This document shows positions 4,501 to 57,370 of a stretch of 64,000 bases of DNA, piece by piece. How positions within the stretch are numbered: the stretch's first letter is position 1; each line of letters starts with the position of its first letter. The notes under the pieces are model-generated. The model had not been told where the DNA came from. It worked only from the letters and a program-made list of their open reading frames with translations, and did not search any database. This DNA comes from Geosiphon pyriformis uo1 (Eukaryota; Fungi; Glomeromycota): contig JAAOMT010000480.1 of NCBI GenBank assembly GCA_016748015.1, forward strand, positions 372,001 through 436,000, written 5' to 3'. Both the position numbers and the translations under genes were made by a program.

Positions 4501-4564
4501 TTCGCTGTGTCGGAACAGGAGGTTGGGGGGCATCTCCTCTTCGCATCGCTCGCGTTTCCCTCAT
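1529..4564 (-). CDS. RSC9: RSC/PBAF subunit Rsc9 (ARID2/BAF200 orthologue): ARID, ARM repeats, RFX-like winged helix, C2H2 zinc finger; multi-exon
   Basis: ATG at 4564. Intron 4312-4400 joins EEHG/TSLQKEPILGSKKLDLY (ARID). Also present: 'NRMLLALRSSLPNEIDWA' ARM start, 'EVWFAYREQF...AAEVIKHV..AFP' winged helix, CRWNGC/CNWMEC zinc fingers and C-terminal 'IPLTACLILRNM'. Exon boundaries around 3600-3870 are ambiguous. Confidence 0.88.
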
Positions 4565-5653: not shown

Positions 5654-11981
<6,328 letters not shown>

Positions 11982-12249
11982 GACGTATACTTAGTGTCAA
12001 AGAGCTAAACCTCCGAGATGGTTAGAGCAGATTACGAGAATTAACGTTAAAGTTGACCACTAAGAGTTTCGAGGCTGTTTCAACAGTTTCTAAAGCAAAG
12101 TTTGAAAAAATACAATGAGACCAGGATCTGTTAACCCAGCTTGAAAGAAAGTAGCCTTTTAGTTTATTTTTCGTAATCGTTTATATAAGTATGCGGCTTA
12201 ATTGCCGATACTCACATATAAGGAAAGTAATGCAATTTACATGACTCCT

Positions 12250-13786: not shown

Positions 13787-13935
13787 AAGATACAAGGAAA
13801 AATAAAGTTTGTTAAAACTTCTTTCTTTTGTACATCCCAAATTCCCCAAAGAGCACAATTTTGAAAGAAGTTTTTTGTTTTTTCTTCTGTTTTATTTTCA
13901 CTATTTCTTTTACACATAACCTATTTGTTGTGGAT

Positions 13936-15843
13936 ATAGAGGCTGCCTTTAGTGGCAGTTCGTCAAGTTTGAAGGCTCCTTTGAGTGCTTCTTTTGGTCC
14001 TGCTGGTGGCTCTTTTTCACAAAAGAAAAGGGTTTCTTTTTGCAATGTCAAGCATTTTGGTGTTAAAGGTGATGTTTTTTTGGCCAAACCTCATTCTGAT
14101 GGAAACATATACTCTGATATGGAAAGTGATTTTAGTAGTAGTATTGTTGATAACATCCTGGTCGGTAGTAGTAATAAGTCTTTTTTTGGTTTAGTAGCTA
14201 TAACTCCTAAGGCAAAGAAAGTTAAAAATAATTTGGCTTGTGGTTCCTCTCTTGGTTCTCTGGATTATGACATAGATAACAATGATGGTGGTTTTTTCTC
14301 TCCTCCTCTTGGTGTTTCTTTGAAAAAAAAGTGGTTAGATCCCAAAATAATCAAAACTCAGGTGAAAGTTGCTGTGAAAAAATCTTATGCTCTGGATATT
14401 AATCTTTCAACTGTGGAAGGCAAATCGGCTATGACCAAAACTCAAGTCATCAGAAATTTATTTTCGAAAATCAATAGTTTTGGGGGGACCACTACCTCCT
14501 TAAAATTTGAAGGAATCATCAGATTTATTTTCACCTTAGAGATCAGCATAGAAAAAGCCACATTATTGGCCAGAAAAAAGGGGATCACTGTAAACACCGA
14601 TCTCAAGAAACAAGGAATTCGTTCAGATTGGGCCATAGTAATAAAAAAAATTCCCATGGATACACCAAAGGGAATGATCATTGCAGCTCTTTCTGAGTTT
14701 GGTTAAGTGGTGTCAATCTGATTGCAACTCATTGGGCTGTGGCAGAAAACTGTAGTGGAGTTTGCCGAATCAAGTCAAACAGATCTGTTGACAGCTAAGT
14801 AGTCATTCTTAATTGGGAAAGACTCAGTATGCGTGGCCAAAGCTGTGGAAGATCATGAGACATGGATATCAAGGGATCAGTTCAGGGTGCTTTTGTTTAC
14901 TTTGCCTGTGGGTACGACTGTGCATAATCTTAGAAATTTTTTGGAAAGGGCTGGTGGAAAGACATGTGTTATTAATTGGTTATTAGAAAGTGATAATAGG
15001 ACTCGTTGTGCTGTGGTTGGCTTTGAGTCTGATGAAATGTTGGAGTTGGCTTTTTGCACAGTTCTAATTCTTGGTAAAGTGAAGCTTTCTTGGACTAGAT
15101 TGGGTCTTGTTTGGTGTAATAGGTGTGAGAAGCTTGGTTATTCAGTTTTGGAGTGTAATGCTAAGATTGCTTCCACTCCCAAGCTTTCAAAATCATTTAT
15201 AAAGTGGGTCACTTTGGATGAGATTCGCCTTCAACTTGTCAAGTTGTATGCAAAAAAGAGTGTTCTCATCTCTCGCTTAGCTGCCTTTGGCAGTAAATTG
15301 TGGGCTCAGATTATTTCTTTTGTGTCTACATCCTTTGGTCTTTTTGTTGGTTCTGATTTGAGTCTCTTTTCCTCTGGTGGTCCAGGTTCTGGTAGTCTGT
15401 CTTCTTCTACTTTTATGCTTGACTCTGTTTTGAATAAATGCTTGTCATCTTTGAAATAATCTTTGGGACTCCTGTCGGACCAAGTGTTATGTATAGTAAA
15501 ATGCCTAAATGGTGCCAGGTTGGTGCCTTTGGTGTCTGTTTTGAATGAAACCCCTGCTATGTCTGTCTCTCAACCTTTTGCTTCAGTTCCGTCTGTGGTT
15601 GCAAATTCAAATTTCTCTTCTGATATGGTCTTAGATAGTCTTGGTGGTCTTTCTAATACCCCCTTTCCTATTGCTATTGATAGTCCGGTTCTTGGCTTAA
15701 ACAGTTCTAAGGTCTTAACTTCCAAGTTGGGCAGTCTTGAATCTAAATTTGTGGCTCTGGAAGTTTTGGTAAATTCTATTTTAGTAAGGTTTGATCAGTT
15801 GTTTGCTGGCTCAGAATTGTCATTGTTCTTCAATTCTCAATGA
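13936..15843 (+). pseudogene. LINE-a ORF1 (RRM-like regions + zinc knuckle), disrupted by stops
   Basis: In-frame fragments 13828-14706, 14833-15459, 15463-15843; knuckle CNRCEKLG(H>Y)SVLEC; probable start ATA (decayed ATG) at 13936. Confidence 0.8.
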
Positions 15844-18800
15844 ACAGTCTGGTTTGGAATATTGCAATGTGTAATGTTAGAGGAATGAACAATCCTGTGA
15901 AACAGGATGATATTATTTGTTGGCATAAAGAAATGAACAATGTGATTTTGATTGTTACTGAAACTAAGTTAAAAGGTAAGATCTGTCCTTGGATCATAAA
16001 CAAGTTTAATAGCATTCGGGTTTTTACTTCTGGTTTGAATTCTGGTCACTTGGATTCCAGGGTTGCGATCATTATGAACAATTTTTTGGCTCAGCATGTA
16101 TGCAAGGTTTTGAATATTCCTGACCAGTTTCTTTTTCTTAGGCTCCTTTTCAAAAATAACCTTTCTGTGTCAGTTTTGGGGCTGTATGCTGGAGCTTCTC
16201 TGGCAGTTTGTTTCTCTTAGGCAGATAATGTTAATTTTTTGATTGCAAGGGTGGTGAATGAGTCCTCTTTTGTCATCTTGGGTGGTGATTTCAATGAAGA
16301 TGATTCTTACAAAAGTGCAAGTTTCAAAAGATGTTTTGATTTAGGTTTGGTTAACTTCTTGGGTAAGAGCTTATATGGAAAAAAAGCTATGTGGAACAAT
16401 TCTCGAGGAATTGCCAAAACTATTGACTATATTTTTGTGTCATCGAATCTAGTTAATGTGATTTTAGATTGTAAAGTGGCTGGTATTGAGAAGTTTTTCA
16501 ATACTGATTATAAGGTTGTTTTTGTTTCTGTAGATCTTGGTGGTTTGCTGGATGTGCAATTAAACTTGTTGCGTAAACAGGCAAATAAGGATCATTGGAA
16601 GTATAATTTTAAAGATGCTAATGATGCTTTATAGTCAAAGTTTAAGGATAAAACGGTGGCTAATGCTACCATGTTCTTTGATGATTTCTTGAATACCAAA
16701 ATGTGTTCGGATTTGGATGCTATGTGGAATGCTGTTCATAAGACATTATGTTTTTCAGCAAATGTGGTTTTCAAAAAAAAATGGTTCAAAGAATATAATG
16801 GTGTTTTTATCAAAACCTTATCCAGATTTCATAGATTGGAGTTGCTGATGTCTAAATTGGTTAAAGCTTCCCAGTTGATCAATCGTGATGTATTCACTTC
16901 ACTGCTAAAAACTTGGATTCTGCTTGATTCTGCTAATGCTTTGTTGGTAAAGTCTCTTTTTTTTTTAGGTTCTTCTTTGAATGATATACGATCTGTTCTT
17001 TCAAAGATTAGGAAATTTTATCGTGCTTCTAAGTTGTTAGAGTCAAAATGTGCTGAGGATTCTTATATCAGGTCTGCTATCAATAGAAGGATGGAAAGCT
17101 TTAAGTCAGACAAAGATCACACTATTAGGAGTGTCTTGAAGCAGCCCTTTTGCAAAGTTATTTTAGATTATTTGGTGGTAAATGAGGAGCTGATCTTGGA
17201 GCCTAATCATGTTAAAAATAAAGTGGATGAGATAATAAAGGGTTGGACGTGGAAGTGAGGTGTGGTTCATGATGTGCCTGAGGATTGGTCTCATCAGTAT
17301 CAGCCTCTGGAACATGTTTTTGATGGCGCCTTTTCCAATGTTATGAACTGTATTAGTTTTGTTGAATTATTTGGTGTGGTTTCCAATCTGCCTGATAAGA
17401 AAGCTGCTGGTTTTTCAGGCATCTTCAACAAACTCTGGAAGCATTGTGACAGTTTGGCTCTTAATATGCTTTTGGTGCTCATCAATTTTTATCTTTCTGA
17501 TGGATTGATTTCTGGTGTTTAGAAGGAGGCTTGGGTTTCGATGATTCTTAAGCCTTATGAATAGGAAGGTGTGCTCACTAATACTCATCATATAGCTCTA
17601 ATTGAGACAGTTCGCAAGATTCTCTCCAAAATTCTTTCTGACAGGATTTCATTGGCATGCAGCAAATACAATGTTCTTTGTGGTGACAATTTTTCAGTTT
17701 AAAAGAGTACTATGACTTAGTTCCCTATTTTTGCGGTTGGTTCAATGATCGAGAACACTATAAAAAAAAACCAGAAGCTCTGGCTGGTTTTGCAGGACAT
17801 GCAAAAGACTTATGATTCTGTTGGTTGGGAACATCTCAGGAATAGTCTGGTTAGGATCAAAATGTATAGCAAGTTTATTTGATTTTTTGGTGGTATTTAT
17901 GGTGGTCATACCAACTGGGTTATGACTGATTTTGGATTAATGAGTGGTTATCATGTGCATGATGGCTTGAACCAAGAGGAAGTTTTCTCACTTCTCCTTT
18001 GACAGATATTTTATGATCCTCTTCTGTGCAAGGTTAAGAGACAGAAGAGTGTATGTAGGTATAGGTTGAATTCTCATTTTGTTTCTAGAACTGGTCATGT
18101 GGAATCTCAAGCTGAGTTAACTTCATTTCTTGCTGCTGGTGCTTTTATGGATGATACAATCTGGGTTGGTAATAGTTAGGCAGTAACACAGCACATTTTA
18201 GATATTGCTAGTGAATTTTTCAGGCTTAATGACATTTCAATTAACAATAATAAAACCATTGTCATTCCTATCAACTGCTGGATTGCAAATCTCTCTCTTT
18301 TGATAAGTGAAATGTCTATATCTGTGGCCAAAAAGGGGGAACCTCATTGGTATTTGGGTATCTTTTTGTCCACTGAGAGTCTTTTTAAACCCAGTCTTGC
18401 TAAAGCTTACTCGGACATCAAGTTTTTTGCTAATTTTGTGTTAAAAAAGACCATCTCTGATAAACAATTTTTGTATTTGGTGTCTTCAATCCTCCACCCT
18501 ATTGTGAATTACAGAACTCAGTTCAGTTTTGTTCCTCTTAGTGTGTGCAACAAATAGGATACTTTGATTCGCAAGGGTTTAAAATCAAAGTCTGGTTTGT
18601 CTTTGGATTTTCCCAATAATGCATTGTATTACTTCTCATTATATGGCTTGAATACTTTTGAACAAATCCAGGCTGAATACAAAGTAGTGTTTGTTGTTTG
18701 TTTTGCAAATTCGGTTGGCATTTTGGATTGTTTGTTTGCTCACAGATCTCATGACTTGCAAATTTTGTGTTGGCATCCGATTTATTCCTTGAGCTCTCCT

Positions 18801-20528
18801 GCTTGTATTGGTGTTGGTGCTTCTGATAATTTTTTGGCAGGCTTAGTTTGTATATTTTATGATTATAATCTTTCTCTGGGTGGCATCAGAGCCAATGCTT
18901 TTCATCTTTGGAAAGAGACCCCTATGGTATTTGTTCTTAGTAAGTTTAGATTTGTCAGATGTCTTCCGTCTTTTTGGTGTTATGGTGTTGCTTTTGTGGA
19001 CCAACTTCGGGACCACAGTAGGACTGCTTTTACTTGGGCAACCTTTAAATGTTGGAAGTGGTTGGATCCACGTGGGCCAGTTTCTGTCTGGTTTGATCTT
19101 TCAGTTTTTTTTATCAACATGGTGGCTCCCATTTCTGTCACATCTTCTGCTGTTAGTGGGGTTGCCCCTTGAAATGTCCTGGATTTGATTGAATTTGTTG
19201 AGATTCGTGATCGTCTACTTGGTGTTGGTACTGATAGTATTTTGGTTTATACTGATAATTTTTTGGCTGGTTTGGGTACTGTTAGCATATGGGCTGGTGC
19301 TGCCGTTTTTTTTGATGGTGTTGATTTGGGCTTGGGTGTTGAAGTCTCTGGTTTGGTATCTTCTACTATGGCAGAGTTGCAGACTATTGCTCTGGCTCTT
19401 GAGTGTGTTCCCCTCTCTAGTTCTGTTTATTTGTTTTTTGACAGTCAAGCGGCTTTGAATGCATGCAAATCTGAGCTGGGTCTGGTGTTTCCAGACTTTT
19501 GAAATCAATGCTGGTTAGAACACTGTCACATTTATGACTTGATTCATAGTAAAAATCTGAACATCTGTTGGTTTAAAGTCAAAAGACATTCTGGTGTTGT
19601 GGGTAATGAGTGTGTGGATACTCTTACTACAGCCACTGCTATGTCTGAACATTCACTTCTTTTACGTGTGAATGCATGCTATATTTTGGCAGGTGGTATG
19701 GTTGTTTCTGGAAATTCTAGACATTTTGTTCATGATATTCTCTGTTGTGTTTATCATGCTCAATGGGAGATTGGTTCTGGTTTTAGGGTCTTGGTCACCA
19801 GTTTGCGTGGTGATGTGGACTGGCATAGGTCTTTTCTTGTGTGGCATCCTGATATGCATATGACTGCTGGTTCCACTGGTAAACATTCTGCCAGTGCTCA
19901 TACTTATTTCATGAAGACTCTACATCATTGACTGCCTGTTGCTGTCTGCAAGCACTTTTATAGTAGATCTTATCCCAGCATTTTATGCTTGTATTGTGAT
20001 GAAGTTGAAGTTTCCGATCATGTTTTTGCTTGTGGTTCTGATACTGCTATCCATGTTCAGCTGCTGGACATGCATGCAGCTATCTGGAGAGCACTCTCCA
20101 GTTTACTCTGGTCATCATCATGACTTATGCAGCTTATGCTCTCTTGCATTTATGACACTTTGTTGTGTTTGGCGTTTTGTAAGAGCTTTATGTTCAAACT
20201 TTGTTTTTAGAAAGTGGTTTCAGTTTTCAGAGACTTGAAGATTGCTTGTCAGAAGGTGGTGGAATTTGTGCAAAATTTTTGTCTTGCTTTTAGGGATGAG
20301 GTTTGGCTGGTTTATATGAGTTACCATGCTTTAATAGAGAAGTGTGGCCTGATTCCTAGAGATGGCTCTGTTTCTGGCCTAGTGCGTGGTCTTTCTTTAT
20401 TATTCTTTACAGGAGTAATAAAGATGTTGGGTATTGTAGAAGCTTTTGGCATTAGCTTTGGCTTTTGTATACCTTGTTTATTTTTTTTGGGTATTGGGAA
20501 TTCTGTATTGGTTATTATAGATGCTTAG
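15840..20528 (+). pseudogene. LINE-a ORF2: AP endonuclease, reverse transcriptase, RNase H, C-terminal zinc finger
   Basis: APE: CNVRGMN, VTETKL, GGDFN, TIDYIFV. RT: GLNQGEVFS, AFMDDT. RNase H: VYTD, AELQTI, DSQAAL, KVKRHSGVVGNECVD. Zinc finger: CLYCDEVEVSDHVFAC. Confidence 0.92.
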
Positions 20529-21282: not shown

Positions 21283-23751
21283 CTACAAATCTATTTTAAT
21301 AGACACTATACTATTAATACCAGAAAAAAAACAGCAAGATTTATAGAAACCAAAGCTAATGCCAAATGTTTTAGAAATCCCAAGCAATCTAACAACCTTA
21401 TTAGAAAACAGAAATAACAGACCAAAAATCCTGGAAAACACTAATTTATCATGCATAATTAATTTTCTCTTCTTTATAAATACTTTATATTTAGCTCTAA
21501 CTAATTATATATCAGTATAATAAACCACTTCAAAGCCCCAAACAAAATCAATAACTCATTTACTGACAGCTTTAACATTATCAAAAACAAACACAGTTTC
21601 TAAAAACCAATAATTAAACAAAAAACCCTTATACAGAATGGTATATAAAACATTATCAGAAGCACATAAAAAAAGCATCTGTAAGATCCAAAAAGATGAC
21701 AAGCTTAAACTCAACAAAGCATATCATTAAGACAAATATAATGCAAGCAGATTCTCATGAATTCCAAAATCTATTACATATACAAAAAAATGATTGGAAC
21801 TCTCTACTTCTTCACAATAAAGACACAATACACTAGGATAATTTTTATAATATAATTGTTTCCAAAAAATAACTGACAGATAATAGTACAGAGCCTTTAT
21901 AAAATACAATCACAAACCAACTGTAGACTTACTTGTAAATTTAGCTGTTATATAATAATTGAAGTGCCAAACCAAAACAGTGTGAATCCAATTTACATTA
22001 CCAATCAAGCTTTTATCAATAATACCAAAACCAAGACCAATCTCTCAACAAGCATGATGAACAATCCTAAAAATCTTCTGAACAAAATAGTGAATATTTC
22101 CTGACACTATTATACTGCCAGTTTTAATAAATCTATTTTTGACCAGAACAGAAAGCATTAAATTTGAATTAGCAGTCAAGCCAGCCAGCTTATCAGCATG
22201 CTTATTTTCCAAAACATCTAAATAACTCTTAACCTTGTATTAAAAAATGCAAAGCCTCTTTTTTCTAATAGTTTCTACAATACTGCACTATTCCATCCAA
22301 CAGCAAGTGTGAAAATCTGGTAAAACCAAAACCAACTCTACAACACAAACATTCAAGGCAGCCTAATTGTTCAAGTACACTACAACTAAACTGCTAGAAA
22401 AAACACACTCCAAAGCCAGAACAATAGTCTGTAAATTTTACTATTATAAAGAGCACTAACTTATTGACCTTAATGCTAATATCCAAATCCAAATTAAAGA
22501 AATATGCAGTTCTCCTATATTCTATTTCACACATACCCAAGTTCTTTAAAGACCCATTCATGTACATACTAATGACACTCAAACTAGCATTAAAGAGACT
22601 TTGTAACAACTCAAAAAAATCATCAGAATTATAAACATCCAAAGACTAGGAGCTAATATTACATGACTTAGCAAAAAGTAAAGACTTAATCAAGAATTCA
22701 CATATCAGGTAAAACCAGTAAAAAACCAGATCTCTTGGATTAAGTTTTTTCCAATAGCAGAAATTCTTCCAATCAAAGATCAGTTCTTTTTTGTCATATA
22801 GTTGGTTAATGAAAGCAATTTCAAATCTTATAAATAAATGTAAAACATCATAAAACACAGAATTTTTTAGAACAAAAGACATCAGAGTGCTGCCAAAAAA
22901 ATAAAATGCAAAAAAATGAATATTGTCAAGAGATATATTACAATTCAAAAAAATTTTCACTATACTAATCAAAAAGTTATTAACCAGACTAATCTTTAAT
23001 TTCATAGATTAAAACAAAGAATAAATGAGAAACCAACTCAGAACCTGCAAATTTAAAAACTGATAATCAAACAACTAATCAAGAATTCTCTTAACATTTA
23101 AAAAAACTAATACTAAAGCCATTTTATTCTTAGCCTATAGCTGTTCAAATATTTTTAAGTCATACAATGAAGAATAGTAAAAAGTCTCATTAAGAAAGTC
23201 TCTTGACAGACCAGCTTTTAACTTTAAATCTTTCTTAATCAGTGTGTTCTACTTAATACACATATTTTTAGAAACAAAACTAAACTAAGTTCTGTAACTG
23301 ATTATAAATTGTAGTACAGCCAAAACCAAATAAAGAAACTATTTGTCTAAGATAGTTTTTCTTAAAATTAGATTAACAAAAAACCTAACATCTGAATGAG
23401 CTTTGGACAAACTAGGTTTGGATAAGCTCTCAGAAGACAAAAAAATACTAAGATATCTATAAGACTCCTTTCTATGAGCAATAGAAATTGGCAAATCACT
23501 TATTGACAATAAAACATTCTTAACTTTTTAGTTAATAGAGATGGCAACAGTCTTTTTATTATTAACTGAAATATTATTGACCATAAAAAAACTACTAGCA
23601 ATATTTAAAATATATTAAGTGGCTGCTTAACTATTCTCAATTCAAATTATGTCATCAATAAAAGCATCAGCTACAAGAAATAATAACAAACCACTTAGGT
23701 TCTTTAGTCTGCCAGTTTTGGCAACAAATTTAGTATCAATATAATAATCAT
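21283..23751 (-). pseudogene. LINE-b ORF2, 3' part (end of RT, RNase H, zinc finger)
   Basis: Fragments 'YMNGSLKNLG' and 'CLYCEEVESSNHFF' are homologous to LINE-a ORF2; stop TAG at 21283-21285. Confidence 0.85.
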
Positions 23752-24729
23752 TGTTACCAGAGGTTTTTGGTCTCTTCTTAGCTCTTGTATGTTTATTGTA
23801 ATGCTGTTAATTCACGACTATGGGAAGTGTTTAAACCTCTGATAACTGAATTTATCTTCAAATTATCTCTTATAATTTGAACTGTTGGGCTTATAAGTGG
23901 AATGGCCAGTTCTATGCCAGTTGCTTTGTGTAGTTATGTTGTAGTAAACATCAACTCTTTCCCAGGAATTGCTCATCTGAAAGCTCACTAAAAATGTGTA
24001 GTTACTTTGCTGTAAAAGTCAACTCTTCTACAGGAATCTTGTTTGTAGGCTACCCTAATGATTGTAATAAGAAAATAAAAAATAAATAAAAGAAATGTAA
24101 AAGAAATAAAATTTTATCAAGGAAAATGTTTTCTATCCAGACCTGGAGTCACTAACAGTTTACTGAAATTGGTAGCTAATCAATTTCAAAACGTTAGTTA
24201 GATTTTGGGGATTTTTCGAGTACAATAATTAAAGAATTTGGTTTTTCAAATTATTTGATATTTATTTTTTTTTTGTGTATAGGAATAGTTCTAAGTGATA
24301 AATCTAAAGTAAGATACATTTTTTCGAAGAGAGAAGTTCTTCTTTTATACAACTTGTCATAACACTATTCTATAAACTTGAACTTTGCTCTTTTCTACAA
24401 TTTTGCTGAACTAAAGATACATTTTGGCGAATTACAAGTTATTTCTGCAAACTATTAGATATTTCGGTGAATTATTAATTATTTCTGCAAATTTTTACAA
24501 ATTTCAGCAAACTTTTGAATGTTACATATTTCAGGGTATTGCATGATTGATCATTGCACTTAGGTTACATTTGTGTTATGTACAAATTGAGTTATTAATT
24601 AAATGATAATTTCGGACATTTTGCTAATATAATAAGTGATAATTTAAAACAATAATATATGCTAATTAATGATAAGATTTATAAGAGTAATTTTATGCTA
24701 AACAATATCTCTAATTTTGTCTGGTAACA
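23752..24729 (-). repeat. Gypsy-A 3' LTR
   Basis: TG...CA ends with 10-bp inverted termini; ~95% identical to 32571-33549 over the part compared; adjacent PPT. Confidence 0.95.
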
Positions 24730-25417
24730 TAACCTCCTCCTCAAGACTGAGCTCCATTGAAGTCCAAGTACTATCTGTAATTTCCAGATAATAATCTAAA
24801 ATTATTAAAGAAATTTGGTCTGAAAATTGTTAAAATTTCAGTTCTGTGAGCTTTCCAATGTATTGAATCTTTAAAGGCTGTAAAATTGGGTTTTGTAAGA
24901 CATTTTCACAGGTGTGGAATAGGTCATAAAGTCTAAGGGCAGCTCTTAGTTTATAACAACTGTTTGTAAGTCCAGCTGTTGTCTTGAATTTGTTGTAGAG
25001 TTGTTTCCGAATAGCTTCTTTTGTGAGATTTGCTGCTGTAAGCTCCCGTTTTTGTTTGTGAAGTGTTTTTCCAATGTAGAAATATCTATATATTAGAGTA
25101 TAATTGTAGTTTTCTTCATTAAGACACAGTTGAAGTTTTTGTTAAATAGTAGCATTTGGTGGAATACTAATAGGAATAAGCATTAAGTTTTCTCTTAAAG
25201 CAAGTTTTAAAAGTTCTGGCAGATGAATTTCAGAATAACTTCTTGTGTTCTTCTTATATGGGTGATATTTTCGTGAATTTGGGGCTAAATTTGTAACTAT
25301 TTCTGTTTGGGTATAATTAATGTGGTTTCCAGTAACAGTAATAGATAATTTGGGTATTGTTTTTAAAGTTAACATTAGTTTTTGGGATAATTGTTGAATG
25401 TTTTGAGGAATAGTCAT
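24698..25417 (-). pseudogene. Gypsy-A ORF3, ~240 codons, unknown function, ends inside the 3' LTR
   Basis: Single frame MTIPQNIQ...YRYFYIGKTL...AALRLYDLF...IQYIGKL...ELSLEEEVMLPDKIRDIV* with two internal TAA (likely CAA>TAA); homologue in Gypsy-B2. Confidence 0.75.
24730..24742 (-). other. Polypurine tract (GAGGAGGAGGTTA)
   Basis: Immediately upstream of the 3' LTR on the minus strand. Confidence 0.85.
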
Positions 25418-25533
25418 TATAAGAGATTTGAAAATAAAAGAAAATTATTTTTAGTGTATGGGTTTTTATGTTATTTTTGCTTTGTTTTTGTGAGATTGTT
25501 TCTAAATTATAAGGAGATAACTATAAATTTAAG

Positions 25534-26918
25534 TTAAGTGTTCAAGTTGGGAGGTTGTTCAATAACAACTATTGGTTTTAAATTTTGGGGAATATCTTTG
25601 AGATTGATTAAAGGGGAATGTGTACCAATTTGTGAAATTAATGGTTCAGGATTGTGTCTGAAATTATAGTGTTTCAAACAATCTCCATGTACAACTTTTG
25701 CTAGGATTTTGTTATCAAGTCTTAGCTTGTATGATCCATTGTCTAGGACTTCATGAATAAAGAATGGTCTATCCCATTTATTTTCAAATTTTCCACTCCA
25801 TTGTTTTTCAGCTTTAGTTCTGTGTAAGAGAACTTTGTTTCCGATTTTAAATTCATTGGTAACTGGAGGCAATTTGTTGTTATGCCATTCTTTTTATTGA
25901 GCTTGGGAGTGTTTAATATGAGTGGCTGCTATTCATTGTTTTCCTTCCAATGTGCTAAGCAGAGTATAGGCTCTTCGTTGTAGTGTTTCCTGAAAGTTGT
26001 CTTTATTAATTGGTTGTACTGGATATGTTTCTATTGTAAAACTAATTGGTAACATTGCTGTCCTTCCATAGGTTAAATCAAATGATATGTGTTTTGTGGT
26101 ATCTTGTTTTAGTGTTCTATATGCTAGTAACACTGATGGAATAAAGAGATCTTATTCTTGCTCAAAATTGGTTAAGACTTTGGCTAATAATTCACACAAT
26201 GTTCTGTTGAAACATTCTACAAGTCTATTTGTTTGTGGATGGTAGGATGAAGATAATAGTCTTTTGACATTAAATCGTCCACAAATTTCTTGGATTAAAT
26301 TGTTCACAAAATGTGTTCTTTAATCAGATAAAAGTTCTATTGGGCATCCATGTCTACAAATAATGTCTTCGTAGATAAAATTTGTTACTGATTTTGCATC
26401 TGCTCATTGAATGGCTCTGGCTTCAGGCCATTTGATGAGATAGTCTACAGCTACTGCAATATAATGGTTTCTTGGTTTGTGATAAGTAGTGGTCTGACTA
26501 AATTAATACCAATTCGGTCAAAAGCCTGTCCAACTTTGATTGGGTTTAAAGGTTCTGTAGGGCAAGTTTCTTTTCTTTTTTGACAACTATTACAAGACTT
26601 AACGTATTCATGAATGTCTTTTCTCATTTGAGGCCAAAAGTAATATTCTAGTGTTCTCTGAGTGGTGTTGTCTTTTCCTAGGTGTGCTGATGAAGGATCT
26701 GAGTACATGTTATATAAAATGGTTTCTTTTTTATGTTCTTGTATTAATCTGAGTGGATTGTCTGAGTTTCTGAAGTTTTGATAATAAACTATGTTGTTGT
26801 GTAAGAAGTATTGTTTGGCTTGTTATTGTAACTGATGTTTTTTATCTGAGGACCAATCTGTTGGAATTGTTAATGTCTCCAAATATTGTTTAAGATTGTT
26901 ATAGTTTTCGGGGTTCAT
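25534..26918 (-). pseudogene. Gypsy-A integrase, separate ORF (HHCC, DDE core, GPY/F; no chromodomain)
   Basis: ATG at 26918 (MNPENYNNLKQYL); HLG...WPQM...CNSCQ; YHPQTN; WD(G)PFFIHEVLDNGSYKL. Confidence 0.88.
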
Positions 26919-26964
26919 TGTTTGTTGTTTTGTTGTTAATTCAAATGGGTGTTGGTTTTGTATT

Positions 26965-29900
26965 CTAATTTTGCCTTATTTTTGAGAGACAATCAATGTT
27001 GGTATGGAGTTTTCCTGGTTTGTGATGTACAATATATCAGTAGTTGGCTAAAAATCCTGTCCATCGGGTTTGTTTGACATTCAGCTAAGTGTTTTTATTT
27101 TGAAGTCATTTGAGTCCAATATTATCAGTGATAATGTCAAATTCTTTAGGCCTGAGATAAAGGTTGAAGTGATGTAAAGCCCAAATTATGGCTGCTGTTT
27201 CTAGTTTTGTGGCAGGGTAGTTTTTCTTAGCTGGTTTTAATGTTCTGCTAGCATAAGCAATTACTCGCTCATTTTTGTTGTCATCTAATTGTGATAAGAT
27301 AGTACCAAAGACAGTGTAAAAAGCGTCTATAGCTAGTCAAAATCAGTTACTGAAGTCTGAATAGGCAAGAATTGAAGCTGTTGTCAGCTTTTCTTTGAGA
27401 ATTTCAAAAGCCTTTTGGTGTTCTTCCATCCATTTGTATTTGACGTTTTTAGTAGTGAGCTGGTTGAGGGGTTTTGCAATTTTTAAGAATTCTTTAATAA
27501 ATTTTCAGTAATAGGATGCTAATCCAATAAATCCTCTTAATTCTGTGGTATTTCATGGAGTCTTGAAGTTTTTGACAGTGCTGATTTTTCCGGGGTCTGG
27601 TTTAATTCCATCTTTGCTAACAATGTGACCAAAAAAGGCCAAACTTGTTTTTCCGAAGTAGTATTTTTCGATGTTTAGTTTCAATCCGGCTTTCCATAAT
27701 CATTAAAAAACTTTGCGCAGGTGTTTTAAGTGTAATTCAAAAGATGGTGAATAAACATCAGTATCATCGAGATAGACAACTACTGATTTCCAAAGAAGGT
27801 TTTTGTAAACAACATCCATAAGTTTTTGGAATGTTGCTGGTGTATTGCATAATCTAAAAGGCATTACATTGAACTCATAATTTCCTCCTTGAGTGGTGAA
27901 TGCTGTTTTGGGGTGATCTTTGGGATCCATGGCAACTTGCCAGTATCCACTCTCTAAATTTAATGTCGAAAAGTATTTGGACTTCCCAAAAGCATCTAGC
28001 ATGTTATCAATTCAGGGAAGAGAGTAGGCATCTCCAATGGTGATACTATTGAGTTGTCGATAATCAACACAAAATCATATCTTTTTATTTTTCTTTTTAA
28101 CTAAGACCACAGGTGAAGTCCATGAACTCATTGATGATTGAATAAGCCCATTGTTGAGCATCCGTTGTATTTCTTCATGGATAAATTGGTGACTTTCTGG
28201 AGTAACTTAGTAGACTTGCTGTCGCCTTAGTTTGACATCTTCTGTATAGATTTGGTGTTAAACCAAATCAGTTTTTCCTAAGTCATTGTTGTTTTCGGCA
28301 AAGATATCAGCAAATTCTGCAATTAGCTCTTTGAGCTGGTTCTGTTGTTGTGGTTCAAGTTGTCCCATGTTGATTCAAGATAGTTTTTCCATGACAACAT
28401 GGTAGTTTTCAGAGCTGGGGTTTGGGTTGATTTTTGGTAGTGAATGTCCAATGATTTCTGAGAAATTGGAAACTATTTGGGATAGTTCTTGTTGAAAGAT
28501 GTTACTGTGAATGACTCCAATTTTTAAGTTATTTAATAAAATTATGGGATAATTGTTGGGATTGTAAAAAGTAACTTAGACTTTCTTTGTTCCTTCTGGA
28601 ATATAAATGTTTGGGATCAAGATATTATGTTCCAAGCAGACTTGTTTATTGGACTCAAAAATTTGTTGTGTGGTTGTTGGCTTTTCACAAGTGTAAATTT
28701 CAGGGTATTCTCCAAAGGGTGAAATAGTAATTGGTTGTAGAAGTCATAGAATCTGGTGAGATTCACTTTGTTCATTAAGAACTATGTTTACTGGAACTGT
28801 GAATTGTTCAATTGAACCAAAACTATTGGTTTCTCTTCTACTTTTTTCCAATTGTTTTTTTTGACTGACTAATTGTAAACCCGAAATGTTGATTAAAGGT
28901 AAATAAATAGCTTAAGCAATTTTTTTAGCATGTTTAATCTGAAAAAGTTTATCAGTTTCATTTTGTAACATGATTGTAATATCTCTTGTATATTCAGCAT
29001 CTATGATTCCTCCTCTAACATTGATTCCTTTGCTTGCCAATGATGATCGTAAAGTGATTTGGACCATTGCTCTTGGTAAGATTTTGAGGGCAATTTTGAG
29101 ATTAATTTTGGTAAGAGAATTTGGTTGAAGAACCAAAGTGTCTTTTTCTGGATATCATAAATTGTATCCAGCATCAATTTCATGTGCTTTTTCTGGTTTT
29201 ATTCCTTGTCCATTGTTGTTGAAGTATTTGAGTTGTGAAGCAGGTTGATTTTCGATGAGGTAGATGGGTGTTGTTTCAATTTTTTCTGTTGCTTCAAATT
29301 CTCTGAATTCAATTTCGTATTCATCACTTTTGCTGGACAATGGAATGCTAAGAGTATAGCATTTAGGACACTATTGTTCGTCACATGGCATTATACACTC
29401 CTCACATAATTTAATGTTCATTTGCTCTAATCATTGAATTTGGGTAGATATGACTTGTGATTTGGTGATATACTTCTACTTTATTTTCATAATCAAATCC
29501 AGCTAATTTCAATGTATATTCAATATATTCAGCTTCTTTCATTTGAAGGACATCTTCTTTGGTTCCTCTGTTAATTAAAACCATGGCAAGTTCATAGATT
29601 ATTTTGGCGTCATGGGAGTAGTGATAGAGTTTGCTGAGGGTGCTGTTGTATGCAGCATTAAAAAGTATTCCACATTTTACTTTTTCTGCAATAGAAAAAG
29701 CATATTGACAAGTTTGATCGTAGACTCTTTCTCTAAATGCAACATCAATCCAGTCACATTCATTGGGAAGCTGCTTTCCACAAGTAAGACAGGATGTTCC
29801 ATCCCATTTTCTGCTTCTTTTGATCAAGTGGCCCTATCATTCTCGATAGCAGGCCTTGCAATAGTAGCAGGTGTGACTTTCATATTCTTTTTTAGATAAA

Positions 29901-32524
29901 ATACAAGCTCTTATTGACGATAATTTCTTGTGGCAGTTCTTATATTTAAGAGGAATATAAGGATGTTGTTTCCTTGGCTCAATCTTTGAGTAAGGTATAT
30001 TCCATTCAGGGGTTTTGGGTTCAGAGTGTAGGGTAAAATGTTCTTGTTCAATTTCATTGGCCCAATTGGACATTAACCCAAGAGCCATGAATGTTTCGAT
30101 TATTGGTTTTTCTTCTTCTGGTTCGAATTCAAAAGCCAGGGCTTTTTCGGAGCGTTTGTTGAATATACCACAAGTGGCAGGTACTCGGACATGTTGTCCT
30201 TGGTAAGAGATTTGTAGTTTTTGGGTTTCCCAATCTAATTTTGCATTGGTTTTTTAAAGCCAGTCATTTTTAACAAAAGCTTGATACTAAGGAGCGTCCA
30301 TTACAAGAACTTTGACTGGAATGGTGATTCCATCAAGAGTGAATAGAAAATTGTCAATTTCTCTTACTGGAGTCTTTTTCATGCCATCAGCAGTGACAAT
30401 TACTGTTTGAGCTGGTCAGTCAACATTTTTTTTTAACTGTTGCATCAACTGGTAAGTAATAATACTTCCAGTAGATCCATTGTCTAGGATTAAGCAAATT
30501 GTTTTTTCTTCAACTTCAGCTTCAGTATACATAGCTGTGATTGTTTTCTGTTCATTTGCAGCAGCATTGCTGAGTAGAAATGGTGATTCATTGGCTTTGA
30601 ACTCGAAAGGAAAGATATCAGACAGATTGGCATTTTCAGCAATTCTGGCTGGTGGAATAATGGTGTGGTTATAAAAAGAATTTTGTTGTTGTGCTGTAGC
30701 TCTACCTTTCGAGAGTGCAGTATGGTGAAAATTCTGTTCTTCTGACATTGTTAAATAATTGGGTTGAGTGTAATAGTGGTTGGGTCTTAGTTGAGTGGGA
30801 TTTTGGAAAACCAATTGGTTGTTTGAACTGATTCTATTGTTGTTTACTTGGTATCAGTTTTGTGGTGTAAATTGATTTTGGGTAATCAATCTTCAAGCAG
30901 GTACTTGATAATGTTGTGTGGGTGGTTGTTGGTATTGCTGTTGGATTGGCTGTGGGGTGGGCTGATAATAATTATTTTAGTATTGGGGTCTTGGTGGATA
31001 GTAAGCCGGTGGTAGTGGTGGTTGGTAATAAGATTGTTGTGGCGAAGGGTAATGTTGATTATTCCTGTTTTGTTGGTCTCATTGTAGCTTTCTGCAATCT
31101 CTTTTCCAGTGGCCAGGGATTCCACAGTAATGGCAATTCTAAGGCTAGTTATTAGAAAGTGGTGCAAAGTTATTTTGATTTTGTCTTTGGGGTGGTTGAT
31201 ATCTTTGGGGTTGCTGTTGTTGTTGTTGGTTGGTGAAATAGTTTTCAACTTTCTTGGTTAATTGGTCAATTTTTTCTTCAGCTGCTGAGCTGGTTTCTCC
31301 AATAGCCAGATTAACAAGTTTGGTACGGTTGGCTTTTTTCATGGCCATTTCATAGTTTTTTGCCTGTTGAATAGCAGTAGCTAAATCTTCTGGTGCATGT
31401 GGGCAAACTTTCTTAATAAGTTTGTCTTTTAGTCCAGCAATAAATTGATCCAAGATTTGTGCATTGGAGTAGTATTCATTGGTTTCTAATTGCCAAATTC
31501 TTCTAAGCAGTTTGTTGAATTTCCCAAGATAAGTCATAACTGATTTACTTGGTTCTTGCTTGATATTTCAGAACTGATTTTGAAGGGTGATAGAAGTGTT
31601 ATTGTCAGTGAACTGTTCTAGAAAAGCAGTTTTGAATGCTTCCCAGTGTTCTGGTGAGGCTTCCAAGTTTTCAAATCATTCACCAGCTGTTCCTTGTAAG
31701 AAGTATGGAATTGCTTTTAACATTCTGGCAGCATTCCAACCATTTGCATCTCCTGCTTTTGAGATTTTGTCAAGCCATTTTTGAGGACTGGTTTCACTGT
31801 CTTCTCCTGTGAACTTAGGGATTTTTGTGATATATGTGGAGGCTATTTCTTTTTCATTTTCTGAGTCTTCTGTTTTTTGTTCTGATTTGGTCTCTTCACT
31901 TCAATTTTTTGCTAAGTAGTCAATAAGGTTTGTGCTGGTTAATATTGGTTTTTTTTGTTGAATAGGGCTTTTGGGTAACTGAAAATCTTTTATTCTTGAA
32001 AACCGAATAAGTGGTGAGCTTGGTGTTTGTAGTTGAGCAAGTGAAGCTAGAAATGGTGTGATTAAGAGTGGTAATTTAAAGCTGGTTCCTTGTTCTGAAG
32101 TTTGTAAATATTTGGCAGTGGTTTTAGGTGTATTGGGAGTAGTTCTGAGTTTTTGTTTTCTTTTTCATTTTCTTTTTTCTGTTTCCGATTCAAAACTAAG
32201 AGAAAATTTCTGTTCTACTGGATAATTCTCTTTACAATACTGAATGATATTGAAATTGAGTTCTTGGAAATATGTTTCAAGTGTTTAATTGTTAAAATCC
32301 TAAGTGTTTAGATGAGAGTGATGTACTAAGCTTTCATATAAGTTGTGTCTAACTTCTGAAATGTTGTAGTCTCTAAAAAGATAATTGTTGATGTGATTTT
32401 CAATGTACTGGTAAAGTGTTTTCTTAAATGTTTCAATTCTGTCTGGAATGTTAAATCTCTGCTTGCAGTGGGTGTAGATTGACTGATAATACTCTAGAGT
32501 TCTTGAATCTGTTTAAGTTGCCAC
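26965..32524 (-). pseudogene. Gypsy-A Gag-protease-Cys-rich-dUTPase-RT-RNase H polyprotein
   Basis: GTG at 32524; CHYCGIPGHWKRDC; LILDNGS; dUTPase motifs; TAFTT...VVYLDD; RNase H ending DCLSKIRQN* (TAG 26965-26967). Gag to protease is one frame. Confidence 0.88.
28810..29220 (-). pseudogene. dUTPase domain in Gypsy-A pol
   Basis: DAGYNL, RSSLA, GGIIDAEYT, KIA(Q), FGS motifs 1-5. Confidence 0.88.
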
Positions 32525-32556: not shown

Positions 32557-32568
32557 GGGAGAGCACCA
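32557..32568 (-). other. Primer-binding site TGGTGCTCTCCC
   Basis: Starts with TGG, 2 nt after the 5' LTR end. Confidence 0.8.
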
Positions 32569-32570
32569 AA

Positions 32571-33549
32571 TGTTACCAGAGGTTTTTGGTCTTTTCTTAG
32601 CTCTTGTATGTTTATTGTAATGCTGTTAATTCATGACTATGGGAAGTGTTTAAACCTCTGATAACTGAATTTATCTTCAAATTATCTCCTATAATTTGAA
32701 CTGCTGGGCTTATAAGTAGAATGGCCAGTTCTGTGCCAGTTGTTTTGTGTAGTTACGTTGTAGTAAACGTCAACTCTTTCCCAGAAATTGCTCGTTTGGA
32801 AGCTCACTAAAAATGTGTAGTTACTTTGCTGTAAAAGTCAACTCTTCTACAGAAATCTTGTCTGTAGGCTACCCTAATGATTGTAATAAGAAAAGAAAAG
32901 AAAAATAAAAGAAATGTAAAAGATATAGGATTTTATCAAGGGAAATGTTTTCTATCCAGGCCTGGAGTCACTAACAGTTTACTGAAATTGGTAGCTAATC
33001 AATTTCAAAACGTTAGTTGGGTTTTGGGGATTTTTTGAGTGCAATAATTAAAGAATTTGGTTTTTCAAATTATTTGATATTTATTTCTTTTTGTGTATGT
33101 AGGAATAGTTCTAAGTGATAAATCTAAAGTAAGATACATTTTCTCAAAAAGAGAAGCTTTTCTTTTATATAACTTGTCATAACACTATTCTATGAACTTG
33201 AACTTTGCTTTTTTCTACAATTTTGCTGAACTAAAGATACATTTCGGCAAATTACAAGTTATTTCTGCAAACTATTAGATATTTCGGTGAATTATCAATT
33301 ATTTTGGCAAATTTCTACAAATTTCGGTGAACTTTTGAATATTACATATTTCAGGGTATTGCATGATTGATCATTGCACTTAGGTTATATTTGTGTTATG
33401 TACAAATTGAATTATTAATTAAATGATAATTTCGGACATTTTGCTAATGTAATAAGTAATAATTTGAAACAATAATATATGCTAATTAATGATAAGATTT
33501 ATAAGGGTAATTTTATACTAAACAATATCTCTAATTTTGTCTGGTAACA
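32571..33549 (-). repeat. Gypsy-A 5' LTR
   Basis: Direct repeat of 23752-24729; followed on the minus strand by the PBS. Confidence 0.95.
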
Positions 33550-44947: not shown

Positions 44948-45597
44948 TTATCTTCTTCTTTTAATATTGAGCTCTATTAAAATTTTTATTTTGAATTAGG
45001 TCTATAACTTTTCTTTTTAATATCATTTGTTCAACTCTGCTTCTTATATTGTTGATTTGCGAGTTGTTCATTTTCCCCTACTGGTTAATGGTTATTGTCT
45101 CCATGTCAGAGTATAGCAATATTTTTGGGTAGTTTTAAAATATTGTGTGTAATCAATAGATTGTTTTAATGTGTAATGTCAGATTTGTTTTTTTTTCTAA
45201 TAATGTCTTCAATATTTTTTATTATCTTTGGATTAAATATTCTTTTGGCTTTATTAAAATATAACTTCTAAATATTCAACTTTTGTCCCAACTGATAGTA
45301 GTAATATAGTATTGGAAGTTGTTCTATTTACTGTTTCTAATTTTCTTTTGAAAGTTCTTCTGTTAGAACCATGATAAGTATTTTTCCAAAAGTGTTCTTC
45401 ACTTTTTCTATAATTTTATCTGACTAGTTTCTTAGTTGGTTCTGTGGTTGCTAATATGGTGTACTTTTTTCTTTTTGCTTGGTGTTTTAATAGCAGATTG
45501 TTTGGTAGTTAATGGTAATTTCTATGTTCAATTGTTGTTGATTTAAGACCTGAAATAATTGTTGAGCTAAAATGTAGATATAATCTGGTATTTCTAT
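44948..45597 (-). pseudogene. Gypsy-B2 ORF3 homologue
   Basis: (M)EIPDYIYILAQQLFQVL...ILYYYYQLGQKL...TIY(R)LHTIF...INQ(W)GKM aligns by eye to Gypsy-A ORF3. Confidence 0.65.
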
Positions 45598-47091: not shown

Positions 47092-48141
47092 TTGAAATGT
47101 TTTTAGATTTGTTTTATTCTCAACAAACCATCAAAATTTCTGTTTTTTTTTCTCTTTTTATAATGTATGATATATTTGAATAGTAAAAGTTCTATTTTCT
47201 ATTTTACATAGTGGTTATTTCCAAATTCTTGTTTTTGAATTGATGTCAATCCTTTATAATCAATGTATATGTCAAATTTTTGGCTTAAATATTTTTTCTA
47301 TTTTATGATTGTCCAATAAATAGCTAAGTGTTCTAGTGCTGGTATTCTATAATTCCTTTCAACTGGACTTAAACTTTAACTGGCATATATTACTGGATGT
47401 TTTTTTCCATCTGGTTTTTTCTGTGATAATACTGCTTCCAATGTTTGGTTTAATGCATTAGTAATAATAATAAATAATTTGTTGTAATCTAAATAGATTA
47501 ATACTAGTGCTTGGATAAGCTTTTTTTTTAGCATATTGAAAGCTTTTTGTTGAGTTTTTGTCTATTCATATTTTACATTTTTGGCTTAGAGCTAGTTAAG
47601 TGATTGAGCTATTTTTGAAAAATTCTGAATAAAGTGGCAATAGTATCCAACAAATCCTAAGAATGCTCGTAGTTCTATTAAGTTGGTGAGTATTAGAAAA
47701 TTTTTGACTATCTCAATTTTGTCTGAATCTGTTTTGATTCTATTTTTGCCTATGACATGTTCTAGAAATTTCAATTTCATTTTGCCAAAAAAGCACTTGA
47801 TTGTATTTAGTTTCAATCTTGCTCTTTTCAATCTCTTAAACACTTGTTGAAGATGATGCAAATAATTATCAAATGTTTTTGAGAACACATTGGTGTTATT
47901 CAAATATATAACTACTGATTTTCATAGCAGTCTGGTATAAACAATTTTCATAAGCCATTAAAATATGACTGGAGTGTTGATTAAGCCAAATGGCATAACT
48001 TTAAATTTAAAATTTTTTTCTTTGGTAGTGAATGTGGTTTTTTTTTTGTTAGTTGAATTTATGGCTACTTGTCAATAAACACTATTCAAGTCTAATGTGA
48101 AGAACTATTTCTTTTCTTCAAAAGCATTAAATAATTCCTGA

Positions 48142-49091
48142 TGTTACCGAAGATTTTTGGTTTCTTTTCTTAAATGTTGGTAATGTTGATTTGCTGTGAA
48201 TTCACGTTCTCAGGAAGTAGTTAAACCTCCAATAACTGAATTTATCTTCAAATTATCTCCTATAATTTGAACTGCTGGGCTTATAAGTGGAATGGCCAAT
48301 TCTGTGCCAGTTACTTTATGTAGTTATGTTGTAGTAAATGTCAACTCTTTCCCAAAGATTGCTTGTCTGGAAGCTCACTAAAATGTGTAGTTACTTTGCT
48401 GTGAAAGTCAACTCTTTTACAGAAATTTCATCTGTAGGCTACCTTAATGATTGTAATAAGAAAATACAAAAAAATAAAAGAAATGTAAAAGAAATAGGAT
48501 TTTATCAAGGGAAATGTTTTCTATCCAGGCCTGGAGTCACTAACAGTTTACTAAAATTGGTAGCTAATCAATTTTGAAATGTTAGTTGGGTTTTGGGGAT
48601 TTTCCAAGTACAATAATTAAAGAATTTGGTTTTTTTGAATTATTTGATATTTATTTCTTTTTGTGTGTGTAGAAATGATTCTAAGTGATAAATCTAAAGT
48701 AAGATACATTTTCTTGAAGAAAAAAGCTCTTCTTTTATACAACTTGTTGTAGTACTAGTCTATGAACTTGCACTTTTTCTCTTTGCTCAATTTTTGGTAA
48801 ATTAAAGATACATTTTGATAAACTACAAGTTATTTCACTGAACTATTGATTAATTTGGGTGAACTATTCATAATTTTGGCGAATTTTTGAATATTACAAA
48901 GTTCAAAGTATTGTGTAATTTGATCATCCTACTTTCTGTTATACTAATTAAATTATTTTGATTGAATCGTGATATGTGATAATTGATTAAATAATAAATG
49001 ATAATTTGAAATGATATTAATATACTAATTAATTATAGGAATTATAAGAGTAATTTCATGCTAATTAATAGCTAAAATTCTACTGATAACA
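48142..49091 (-). mobile_element. Solo LTR of the Gypsy-A family inserted in Gypsy-B2 RT; TSD CTGA
   Basis: Homologous to 23752-24729; CTGA at 48138-48141 and 49092-49095; RT reads DSYSIP(R)IQ|ELFNAF across it. Confidence 0.92.
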
Positions 49092-56407: not shown

Positions 56408-57370
56408 TGTTACCAGACGAAATTAGAGATATTATTTAGCATGAAATTATTTTATAATTCCTATCATTAATTAGCATATATTATCGTTTTAAATGATCAC
56501 TTATTATATTAGCAAAAATGTCCGAAATTATCATTTAATTAATAACCCAAATTGTACACAACACCAATGTAACCTAATTGCGATGATCAATCATGCAATA
56601 CCCTGAACTATGTAACATTCAAAAGGTTCGCCGAAATTTGTAGAAATTTGCCAAAATAATTGATAGTTCACCAAAATATCTAATAGTTTGCCGAAATGTA
56701 TCTTTAGTTCAGCGAAATTGTAGAAAATAGCAAAGTTCAAGTTCATAAAATAGTGTTATGACAAGTTGTATAAAAGAAGAGCTTCTCTCTTCGAGAAAAT
56801 GTATCTTACTTTAGATTTATTTCTTAAAACTGTTCCTATACACACAAAAAGAAATAAATATCAAATAATTCGAAAAACCAAATTCTTTAATTATTGTACT
56901 TGGAAAATCCCCAAAACCCAACTAACATTTCGAAATTGATTAGCTACCAATTTCAGTAAACTGTTAGTGACTCCAGGCCTGGATAGAAAACGTTTCCTTT
57001 GATAAGATCCTATTTCTTTTACACTTCTTTTATTTTTCTTTCTTTTCTTATTACAATCATTAGGGTAGTCTACAGACGAGATTCCTGTAGAAGAGTTGAC
57101 TTTCACAGCAAAGTAACTACACATTTTTTTTAGTGAGCTTCCAGACAAGCAATTCCTGGGAAAGAGTTGACATTTACTACAATGTAACTACATAAAGCAA
57201 CTGGCATGGAATTGGCCATTCCACTCATAAGCCCAGCAAGTTCAAATTATAGGAGATAATTTGAAGATAAATTCAGTTACTGGAGATTCAACCACATCCA
57301 GAAAACGTGAATTCACAGCAAATAAGTATCAACAACATTACAGAAAAGAGACCAAAAACCTCCGGTAATA
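56408..57370 (+). mobile_element. Solo LTR of the Gypsy-A family in C2 gag; TSD CCAT
   Basis: TGTTACCAGAC...CCGGTAATA; CCAT at 56404-56407 and 57371-57374; the gag frame is restored on removal. Confidence 0.92.

What the first reader, a model, noticed from the sequence alone, without database searches (positions are those of the whole stretch)
24698..25417. Conserved non-Env ORF3 running through the PPT into the 3' LTR (nef-like position)
After integrase, a ~240-codon frame encodes a basic, probably helical protein with no obvious signal peptide or TM segment. The PPT itself encodes EEEV and the stop lies ~30 nt inside U3; the same LPDEIRDII* tail is present in the solo LTR at 56408. Divergent Gypsy-B2 (45597-44948) has a homologue: MxIP..I..L.Q.L, Y.Y...G..L, RL...F, I..(I/W)GK(L/M). 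Conservation across families implies a selected accessory protein, for example a transactivator or silencing suppressor (function is inference).
Basis: partly seen in the sequence, partly recalled or inferred. Interest (0 to 1): 0.78.

Follow-up and report, generated by a model that had tools for sequence, protein, structure and literature searches.

The report
Fungal Gypsy retrotransposon accessory gene family
Gypsy-type retrotransposons of a soil fungus and of unrelated soil metagenomes carry a conserved extra gene, broken in this copy, for a small soluble helical protein with no known relative, which possibly (untested) binds the element's own promoter repeats to keep it active.

Summary
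The ORF3 is real, but this copy is dead. Intact paralogues are annotated as Geosiphon pyriformis hypothetical proteins. Relatives fall into six Geosiphon families and three metagenome lineages at 20-35% identity, including B2 in this window. An independent contig has the same order: integrase, spacer, ORF3, PPT, LTR. Protein-level constraint is shown. There is no hydrophobic signal or membrane stretch and no Env match. The predicted helical core is confident (pLDDT 92) and has no clear structural relative. The 'nef-like' overlap is incidental: it covers 10 codons, B, D and E families stop before the PPT, and the solo-LTR tail is just LTR sequence. Best mechanism (about 0.38, inferred): a DNA-binding regulator of the element's family-specific U3 repeats. 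A DUF1016/ParB-like lead failed a shuffle control. The scan noted comparable ORF3s in two other genomes; whether they are this family is unknown. Verdict: new variant of a known kind (non-Env additional ORF).

The parts
24698..25417 (-). ORF3 of Gypsy element A, 239 codons, broken by TAA at codons 92 (25142-25144) and 196 (24830-24832)
   Evidence: intact paralogues 81-89% identical
25304..25417 (-). ORF3 N-terminal module (codons 1-38): predicted helix plus beta-hairpin, hydrophobic pattern kept in all families
   Evidence: (pLDDT 57-68)
25226..25303 (-). ORF3 variable, predicted disordered linker (codons 39-64)
   Evidence: pLDDT under 50; 12 of 26 columns differ between A1 and A2
24788..25147 (-). 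ORF3 conserved all-helical core (about codons 91-210)
   Evidence: pLDDT 92 for the L001 homologue; 11 of 120 columns differ
24720..24755 (-). DNA-conserved pre-PPT motif, polypurine tract (24730-24742) and LTR start; read through in frame as ELSLEEEVMLP
   Evidence: 32 of 36 nt shared with L001, the only blastn match in the ORF3 region
23752..24729 (-). 3' LTR of element A (TG...CA)
24421..24520 (.). U3 tandem array (10/20-nt units, TTCGCCGAAAT-like), upstream of a TATA-like box near 24349; candidate ORF3 target (inferred)
25418..25533 (-). AT-rich non-coding spacer between integrase stop and ORF3 ATG
25534..32008 (-). Decayed gag-pol (gag, protease, dUTPase-like stretch, RT, RNase H, integrase with SH3-like tail); 39 stops in 2046 codons scored
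   Evidence: domains read from translation, Pfam run on the related element at 60629-63837
32557..32568 (-). Putative primer-binding site (TGG-start) two bases after the 5' LTR
   Evidence: the tRNA was not identified
32571..33549 (-). 5' LTR of element A, 55 differences from the 3' LTR (50 transitions)
44961..45597 (-). Decayed ORF3 homologue of element B2 (start codon lost, 9 internal stops, frameshift near 45190); ends before its PPT at 44948-44960
56408..57370 (+). Solo LTR, family A1, with CCAT target duplication; carries only the LTR-derived tail
48141..49091 (-). Solo LTR, family A2, with TCAG target duplication; its start reads like the A2 tail LPVEF*

Best explanation
This is a broken copy of a conserved, non-envelope accessory gene of a fungal Ty3/Gypsy lineage, whose small soluble protein possibly binds the short repeats in its own LTR promoter to regulate or unsilence the element. 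Shown: the gene, its place after integrase, its spread over many families, constraint on its core, lack of membrane features. Predicted: a helix-hairpin module, a flexible linker and a compact helical core. Inferred: the N-terminal module pairs two chains, the core reads DNA, the target is the family-specific U3 array upstream of the TATA-like box, and the protein is made from its own subgenomic mRNA. Confidence is about 0.95 for a selected non-Env gene and about 0.38 for this mechanism.
For: Gene: 197 hits, the 120 listed all G. pyriformis hypothetical proteins, 28 of them full length. Profile search gave 67 hits; the tree of 19 chosen rows separates A1, A2, B, C, D, E and metagenome lineages. 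L001 has RT-RNase H-integrase, a 316-nt gap, intact ORF3, PPT and LTR. A versus L001: integrase DNA 69% identical, ORF3 without blastn match but 32% identical in frame over 82 residues. A1 versus A2 (23 copies each): fixed differences in 12 of 26 linker columns against 11 of 120 core columns, p 3e-5, while private variants are even, 30 against 94, p 0.011. Mechanism (weak): core model pLDDT 92, pTM 0.84; among 50 VIA rows, Spo0J (Z 4.3, rmsd 4.7, 94 aligned), KorB (4.2, 5.0, 94), Raf1 (4.2, 4.5, 92), ParB (4.1, 2.6, 58) and sigma-F (4.8, 2.4, 57) appear, the first three spanning the whole domain. A repeated 10-mer beats shuffles in 7 of 9 LTRs and differs between families. Precedent: VANC targets form tandem repeats that vary between related elements (PMC5735166, abstract).
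Against: No structural match stands out: best Z 6.0 to a designed protein, none at 8 or more, and Z 4-5 is background for helical domains; Foldseek has no hit at E 0.001. The DUF1016_N resemblance (Pfam E 0.04-0.12 in 2 of 32 rows, hhalign 12%) was matched or beaten by 43 of 300 block shuffles. Two metagenome members are acidic overall (pI 5.4, 5.9). Few surface-type residues are invariant across families. U3 tandem arrays are common in LTRs and usually bind host factors (own knowledge), and several of the 9 LTRs are relatives, not independent. The copies were picked as annotated ORFs, and no codon-level dN/dS was possible. This copy decays like the rest of the element: 2 stops in 239 codons against 39 in 2046.
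Confidence: 0.38

Rival explanations
1. ORF3 counters host silencing through protein or RNA contacts (an RNAi suppressor or chromatin adaptor), not by reading DNA.
For: Related fungi silence Gypsy elements with methylation and small RNAs (10.1101/2021.03.30.436303, passages). The LTR pair differs mostly by transitions, 50 of 55. Fast divergence and variable charge fit a host-contact protein; accessory TE proteins had more predicted host contacts than core enzymes in PMC13547354 (passages).
Against: No match to a known suppressor in Pfam, PDB or the viral fold library. Transition bias shows decay of the copy, not what ORF3 does.
Confidence: 0.25
2. ORF3 is a particle or integration accessory, for example a tether that guides the integrase in place of a chromodomain.
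For: The integrase ends in an SH3-like tail without a recognisable chromodomain in A and L001 (read from translations), whereas most fungal Gypsy elements carry one (PMC3248453, abstract passage). The three A-type insertions have 4-bp duplications TCAT/CCAT, CCAT and TCAG.
Against: ORF3 is separated from integrase by a spacer of variable length (116 and 316 nt), so it is not a fused domain. Three target sites cannot show a preference.
Confidence: 0.2
3. ORF3 is a self-limiting repressor (copy-number control) acting on the same LTR.
For: Same anatomy as the best explanation; the weak whole-domain look-alikes include the repressor KorB.
Against: LTR elements cover 41.2% of the G. pyriformis genome (PMC11952901, passage), which sits poorly with tight self-limitation; the fold matches are not significant.
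Confidence: 0.12
4. The frame is a degenerate Env or a chance frame in non-coding 3' DNA.
For: It sits where env lies in retroviruses; this copy and B2 are broken.
Against: No hydrophobic stretch and 0-3 cysteines in 10 of 10 members; 211-244 residues; in-frame protein similarity where DNA similarity is gone; core-versus-linker constraint.
Confidence: 0.05

Closest known systems
Non-Env additional ORFs of Ty3/Gypsy elements (plant extra ORFs; rotifer ORF3s; unnamed 'add. ORF' of some fungal Gypsy elements)
   Same: Separate ORF between pol and the 3' LTR, no established envelope role (PMC5718144 passages; PMC5408684 abstract; PMC2864245 figure legend).
   Different: No match to DEDDy exonuclease, GDSL lipase or any Pfam family at cut-off. 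Whether the 'add. ORF' of PMC2864245 is this family could not be checked: its figure and .DOC supplement were not seen.
VANC anti-silencing proteins of Arabidopsis VANDAL transposons
   Same: Element-encoded accessory protein beside family-specific tandem repeats in non-coding DNA (PMC5735166 abstract). Working analogy only.
   Different: DNA transposon, plant, derived from MAIN-like proteins (PMC13547354 passages); no sequence or fold link found; binding not tested here.
Foamy-virus Tas and lentiviral nef (recalled, no call)
   Same: Accessory gene just before or overlapping the 3' LTR; Tas binds U3 DNA.
   Different: Here the overlap is 10 codons and missing in three families; no env; no similarity seen in Pfam, PDB or viral-fold searches.
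ParB/KorB/Spo0J-type HTH domains, DUF1016_N, DUF3102
   Same: Similar run of helices and a Y/F-x-IG...R-x-Y-x-x-F pattern in register with DUF1016_N.
   Different: All scores are at background; shuffle control not passed; conserved DUF1016_N YG motif has no counterpart in the alignment.

Membership tests
Ty3/Gypsy LTR retrotransposon | Two direct LTRs with TG...CA ends and target-site duplication | tested here: met
   978/979 nt, 94% identical, 4-bp duplication with one mismatch
Ty3/Gypsy LTR retrotransposon | Pol order PR-RT-RH-IN, Ty3-like RT | tested here: met
   order read; L001 RT/RH best PDB match Ty3, E 6e-47; integrase Pfam on the related element
Ty3/Gypsy LTR retrotransposon | PBS after 5' LTR and PPT before 3' LTR | tested here: met
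   primer tRNA not identified
Additional (non-Env) ORF3 of LTR elements | Separate conserved ORF between pol and 3' LTR | tested here: met
   A, B2 and L001
Additional (non-Env) ORF3 of LTR elements | Selection on the protein in active lineages | tested here: met
   protein-level tests; codon-level dN/dS not run for lack of paralogue DNA
Additional (non-Env) ORF3 of LTR elements | Transcribed and translated | not testable with these tools
   no RNA run was listed
Env glycoprotein | Signal peptide and transmembrane anchor | tested here: not met
   hydropathy scan only: maximum 19-residue mean 0.39-1.29 in 10 of 10 members
Env glycoprotein | Sequence or fold similarity to a fusion protein | tested here: inconclusive
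   no significant row
nef-like LTR-overlapping gene | Substantial conserved coding overlap with U3 | tested here: not met
   10 codons in A1, 4 in A2; B, D, E end at GAQ[YF]* before the PPT
ParB/KorB-type HTH, DUF1016_N | Significant profile similarity | tested here: not met
   DUF1016_N only: 12% probability, 43 of 300 shuffles as high
ParB/KorB-type HTH, DUF1016_N | Shared fold over the domain | tested here: inconclusive
   Z 4.1-4.3, rmsd 2.6-5.0, 58-94 aligned
VANC-like sequence-specific anti-silencing factor | Family-specific tandem motifs in the element's non-coding DNA | tested here: met
   7 of 9 LTRs above shuffles, low cross-counts between families
VANC-like sequence-specific anti-silencing factor | Protein binds those motifs and removes methylation | not testable with these tools
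   needs binding and methylation assays

The most novel reading that the evidence does not exclude
A fungal Gypsy lineage encodes its own sequence-specific LTR activator or anti-silencing protein, with a fold unlike any solved structure, co-evolving with family-specific U3 repeats; this would help explain why LTR elements fill about 41% of the Geosiphon genome.
Probability: 0.25. Interest if true: 0.8.

Novelty: new variant of a known kind. Interest (0 to 1): 0.5.

Why it matters
Non-Env third ORFs of LTR elements are known as a class but mostly without function, and none was found described for Glomeromycotina in the paper searches run. This family is bounded, has intact members, a confident predicted core and a candidate DNA target in each LTR, so the question of how these elements escape silencing becomes directly testable. 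It also shows that well over a hundred 'hypothetical proteins' in the G. pyriformis annotation are retrotransposon ORF3 copies, not host genes.

Tried and rejected
No whole genome was held, so paralogue DNA, copy number and dN/dS could not be had. No RNA holder was listed. No relative was found in viral contigs with three queries or in phage records. PDB sequence searches gave only FtsQ at E 0.6 or nothing. Pfam and PHROGs gave no ORF3 family at cut-off; the SH3 hits come from integrase tails joined on by gene models. Fold searches with both models gave no clear relative; this does not show a new fold. The DUF1016_N lead was built into an 11-row alignment and failed its null; DUF3102 and KorB profiles were not built. 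A palindrome scan of LTRs over 7 spacers gave a few rows at p under 0.05, uncorrected; not relied on. A domain-only Atlas search did not complete. Rejected: solo-LTR tail as evidence of selection; intact annotated copies as evidence of selection on single copies (with about one stop per 52 codons and very many copies, some open frames survive by chance); splice acceptor at the pyrimidine tract (no adjacent AG in A or L001). Paper searches listed no paper describing this ORF; the Geosiphon genome papers themselves were not in the results.

Full report
Setting. The window is AT-rich eukaryotic DNA packed with nested retroelements. Element A runs on the minus strand between two LTRs, 32571-33549 and 23752-24729, 94% identical, with a TGG-start primer site, a PPT and a 4-bp target duplication. 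Its gag-pol has the Ty3/Gypsy order and is decayed: 39 stops in 2046 codons scored. The closest proteins are all annotated as Geosiphon pyriformis, so the window is most likely from that fungus or a close relative (inference).

Observation. The frame at 25417-24698 is 239 codons from ATG to TAG but holds TAA at codons 92 and 196. Two stops in 239 codons is in line with the rest of the element, so this copy is a pseudogene. The PPT is read in frame and the stop falls 30 nt into U3. The same tail in the solo LTR and the 5' LTR is only LTR sequence. B2 carries a true but ruined homologue at 45597-44961 that ends before its PPT.

The family. A single-sequence search gave 197 hits; the 120 listed are all G. 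pyriformis hypothetical proteins in two subfamilies, and 28 of the 120 are full length. B2's intact relative P0124 aligns to A over about 190 residues (23%, E 1e-7; hhalign 88%). A profile search of 1.84 billion representatives gave 67 hits. Of 20 proteins looked up for source, 13 were Geosiphon and 7 unnamed metagenome proteins. A tree of 19 hand-picked rows separates Geosiphon families A1, A2, B, C, D, E and the metagenome lineages P0152, P0156 and P0198/P0199; deep joins are on long branches and unsure. Genomic position was seen directly only for A, B2 and L001; for D and E it is suggested by gene models that join integrase tails to ORF3. L001, a 3.7-kb metagenome contig, shows RT-RNase H-integrase, a 316-nt spacer, an intact 230-codon ORF3, PPT and LTR. 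The Atlas's nearest cluster to P0156 has 98 eukaryotic members, mostly Mucoromycota (0.94, 176 of 256 features), but the recognition value was below the tool's bar, so this is a lead only.

Selection. Between A and L001 the integrase DNA is 69% identical; ORF3 has no blastn match yet is 32% identical in frame over 82 residues. Between 23 A1 and 23 A2 copies, fixed differences fill 12 of 26 linker columns but 11 of 120 core columns (p 3e-5), whereas private variants are spread evenly (30 and 94; p 0.011). These copies were ascertained as annotated ORFs, and no dN/dS was possible.

The overlap. The only DNA shared by A and L001 in this region is a 36-nt motif over the PPT (89%). A1, A2, P0152 and P0156 read it as ELSLEEE.ML; B, D and E read it in another frame and stop at GAQ[YF]* before the PPT. 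The overlap is therefore read-through of a cis-acting signal, not a nef-like arrangement.

The protein. No signal-like or membrane-like stretch and few cysteines in 10 of 10 members; pI 5.4-9.7. The full model has an N-terminal helix and hairpin of low confidence, a disordered linker and a helical core (mean pLDDT 73). The core of the L001 protein folds at pLDDT 92, pTM 0.84. No fold search gave a clear relative. Spo0J, KorB and Raf1 are among the rows that span the whole core, at Z 4.2-4.3, rmsd 4.5-5.0, 92-94 aligned, which is background level. A DUF1016_N hint failed a block-shuffle null, 43 of 300.

LTR arrays. In the first 500 nt of 9 LTR copies, the best repeated 10-mer beat 60 dinucleotide shuffles in 7 (p 0.016-0.033), mostly upstream of a TATA-like box, and motifs differ between A, B2, the other B-type LTRs and L001. 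Such arrays are common in LTRs (own knowledge), and the copies are not all independent.

Mechanism. I favour, at about 0.38, a two-module regulator that binds its own U3 array to activate or unsilence the element, by analogy with VANC (PMC5735166, abstract) and foamy-virus Tas (recalled). Every step after 'conserved soluble protein' is inferred. Rivals are a protein- or RNA-binding silencing suppressor (0.25), an integration or particle accessory (0.2), a self-repressor (0.12), and Env or chance (0.05).

What is known. A downstream ORF3 need not be env (PMC5718144, passages); rotifer ORF3s are enzymes (PMC5408684, abstract); some fungal Gypsy elements carry an unnamed additional ORF and dUTPase (PMC2864245, passages; figure and .DOC supplement not seen, and they may bear on novelty). 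LTRs cover 41.2% of the G. pyriformis genome (PMC11952901, passages). Also read as passages: 10.1101/2021.03.30.436303, PMC13547354, PMC3248453. Nine searches listed no description of this family; the library lacks most subscription papers. The scan's own notes hold two similar ORF3 reports from other genomes; sequence look-ups with P0005 and P0124 found no look-alike, so they may or may not be this family.

Verdict. A real, undescribed as far as searched, non-Env accessory gene family of fungal Gypsy elements; new variant of a known kind; interest 0.5.

Noticed in passing
window 29200-28800 (-) and 60629-61819 (+): These Gypsy elements carry a dUTPase between protease and RT (Pfam E 3e-22 for the second), an arrangement reported for a few other fungal elements.
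   Followed up: partly
window 29900-29580 (-): A cysteine-rich stretch between protease and dUTPase in element A (several CxxC pairs); possibly an extra zinc-binding domain.
   Followed up: no
window 23748-23751, 33550-33553, 56404-56407, 57371-57374, 48137-48140: All three A-type insertions have 4-bp target duplications (TCAT/CCAT, CCAT, TCAG); may hint at a target preference.
   Followed up: partly
window 48141-49091 and 56408-57370: Both solo LTRs sit inside B-type elements, whose flanking parts join up across them: nested insertion followed by LTR recombination.
   Followed up: partly
window 38000-40000: Extremely AT-rich stretch (GC 12%) with low-complexity and self-inverted repeats.
   Followed up: no
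window 1500-12000 (-): Host genes with introns; by eye a chromatin-remodeller-like gene and an ARID-like gene (names recalled, not tested).
   Followed up: no
window 13816-20528 (+), 22600-23700, 33551-35750: Decayed copies of another repeat family, LINE-like by eye, one interrupted by element A.
   Followed up: no
L001 3400-3600: Several copies of a near-palindromic TTTGCCCTAGTG motif before the TATA-like box of this LTR.
   Followed up: partly
proteins P0127-P0226: Many G. pyriformis gene models are chimeras joining ORF3 pieces to gag, integrase or other repeats.
   Followed up: no
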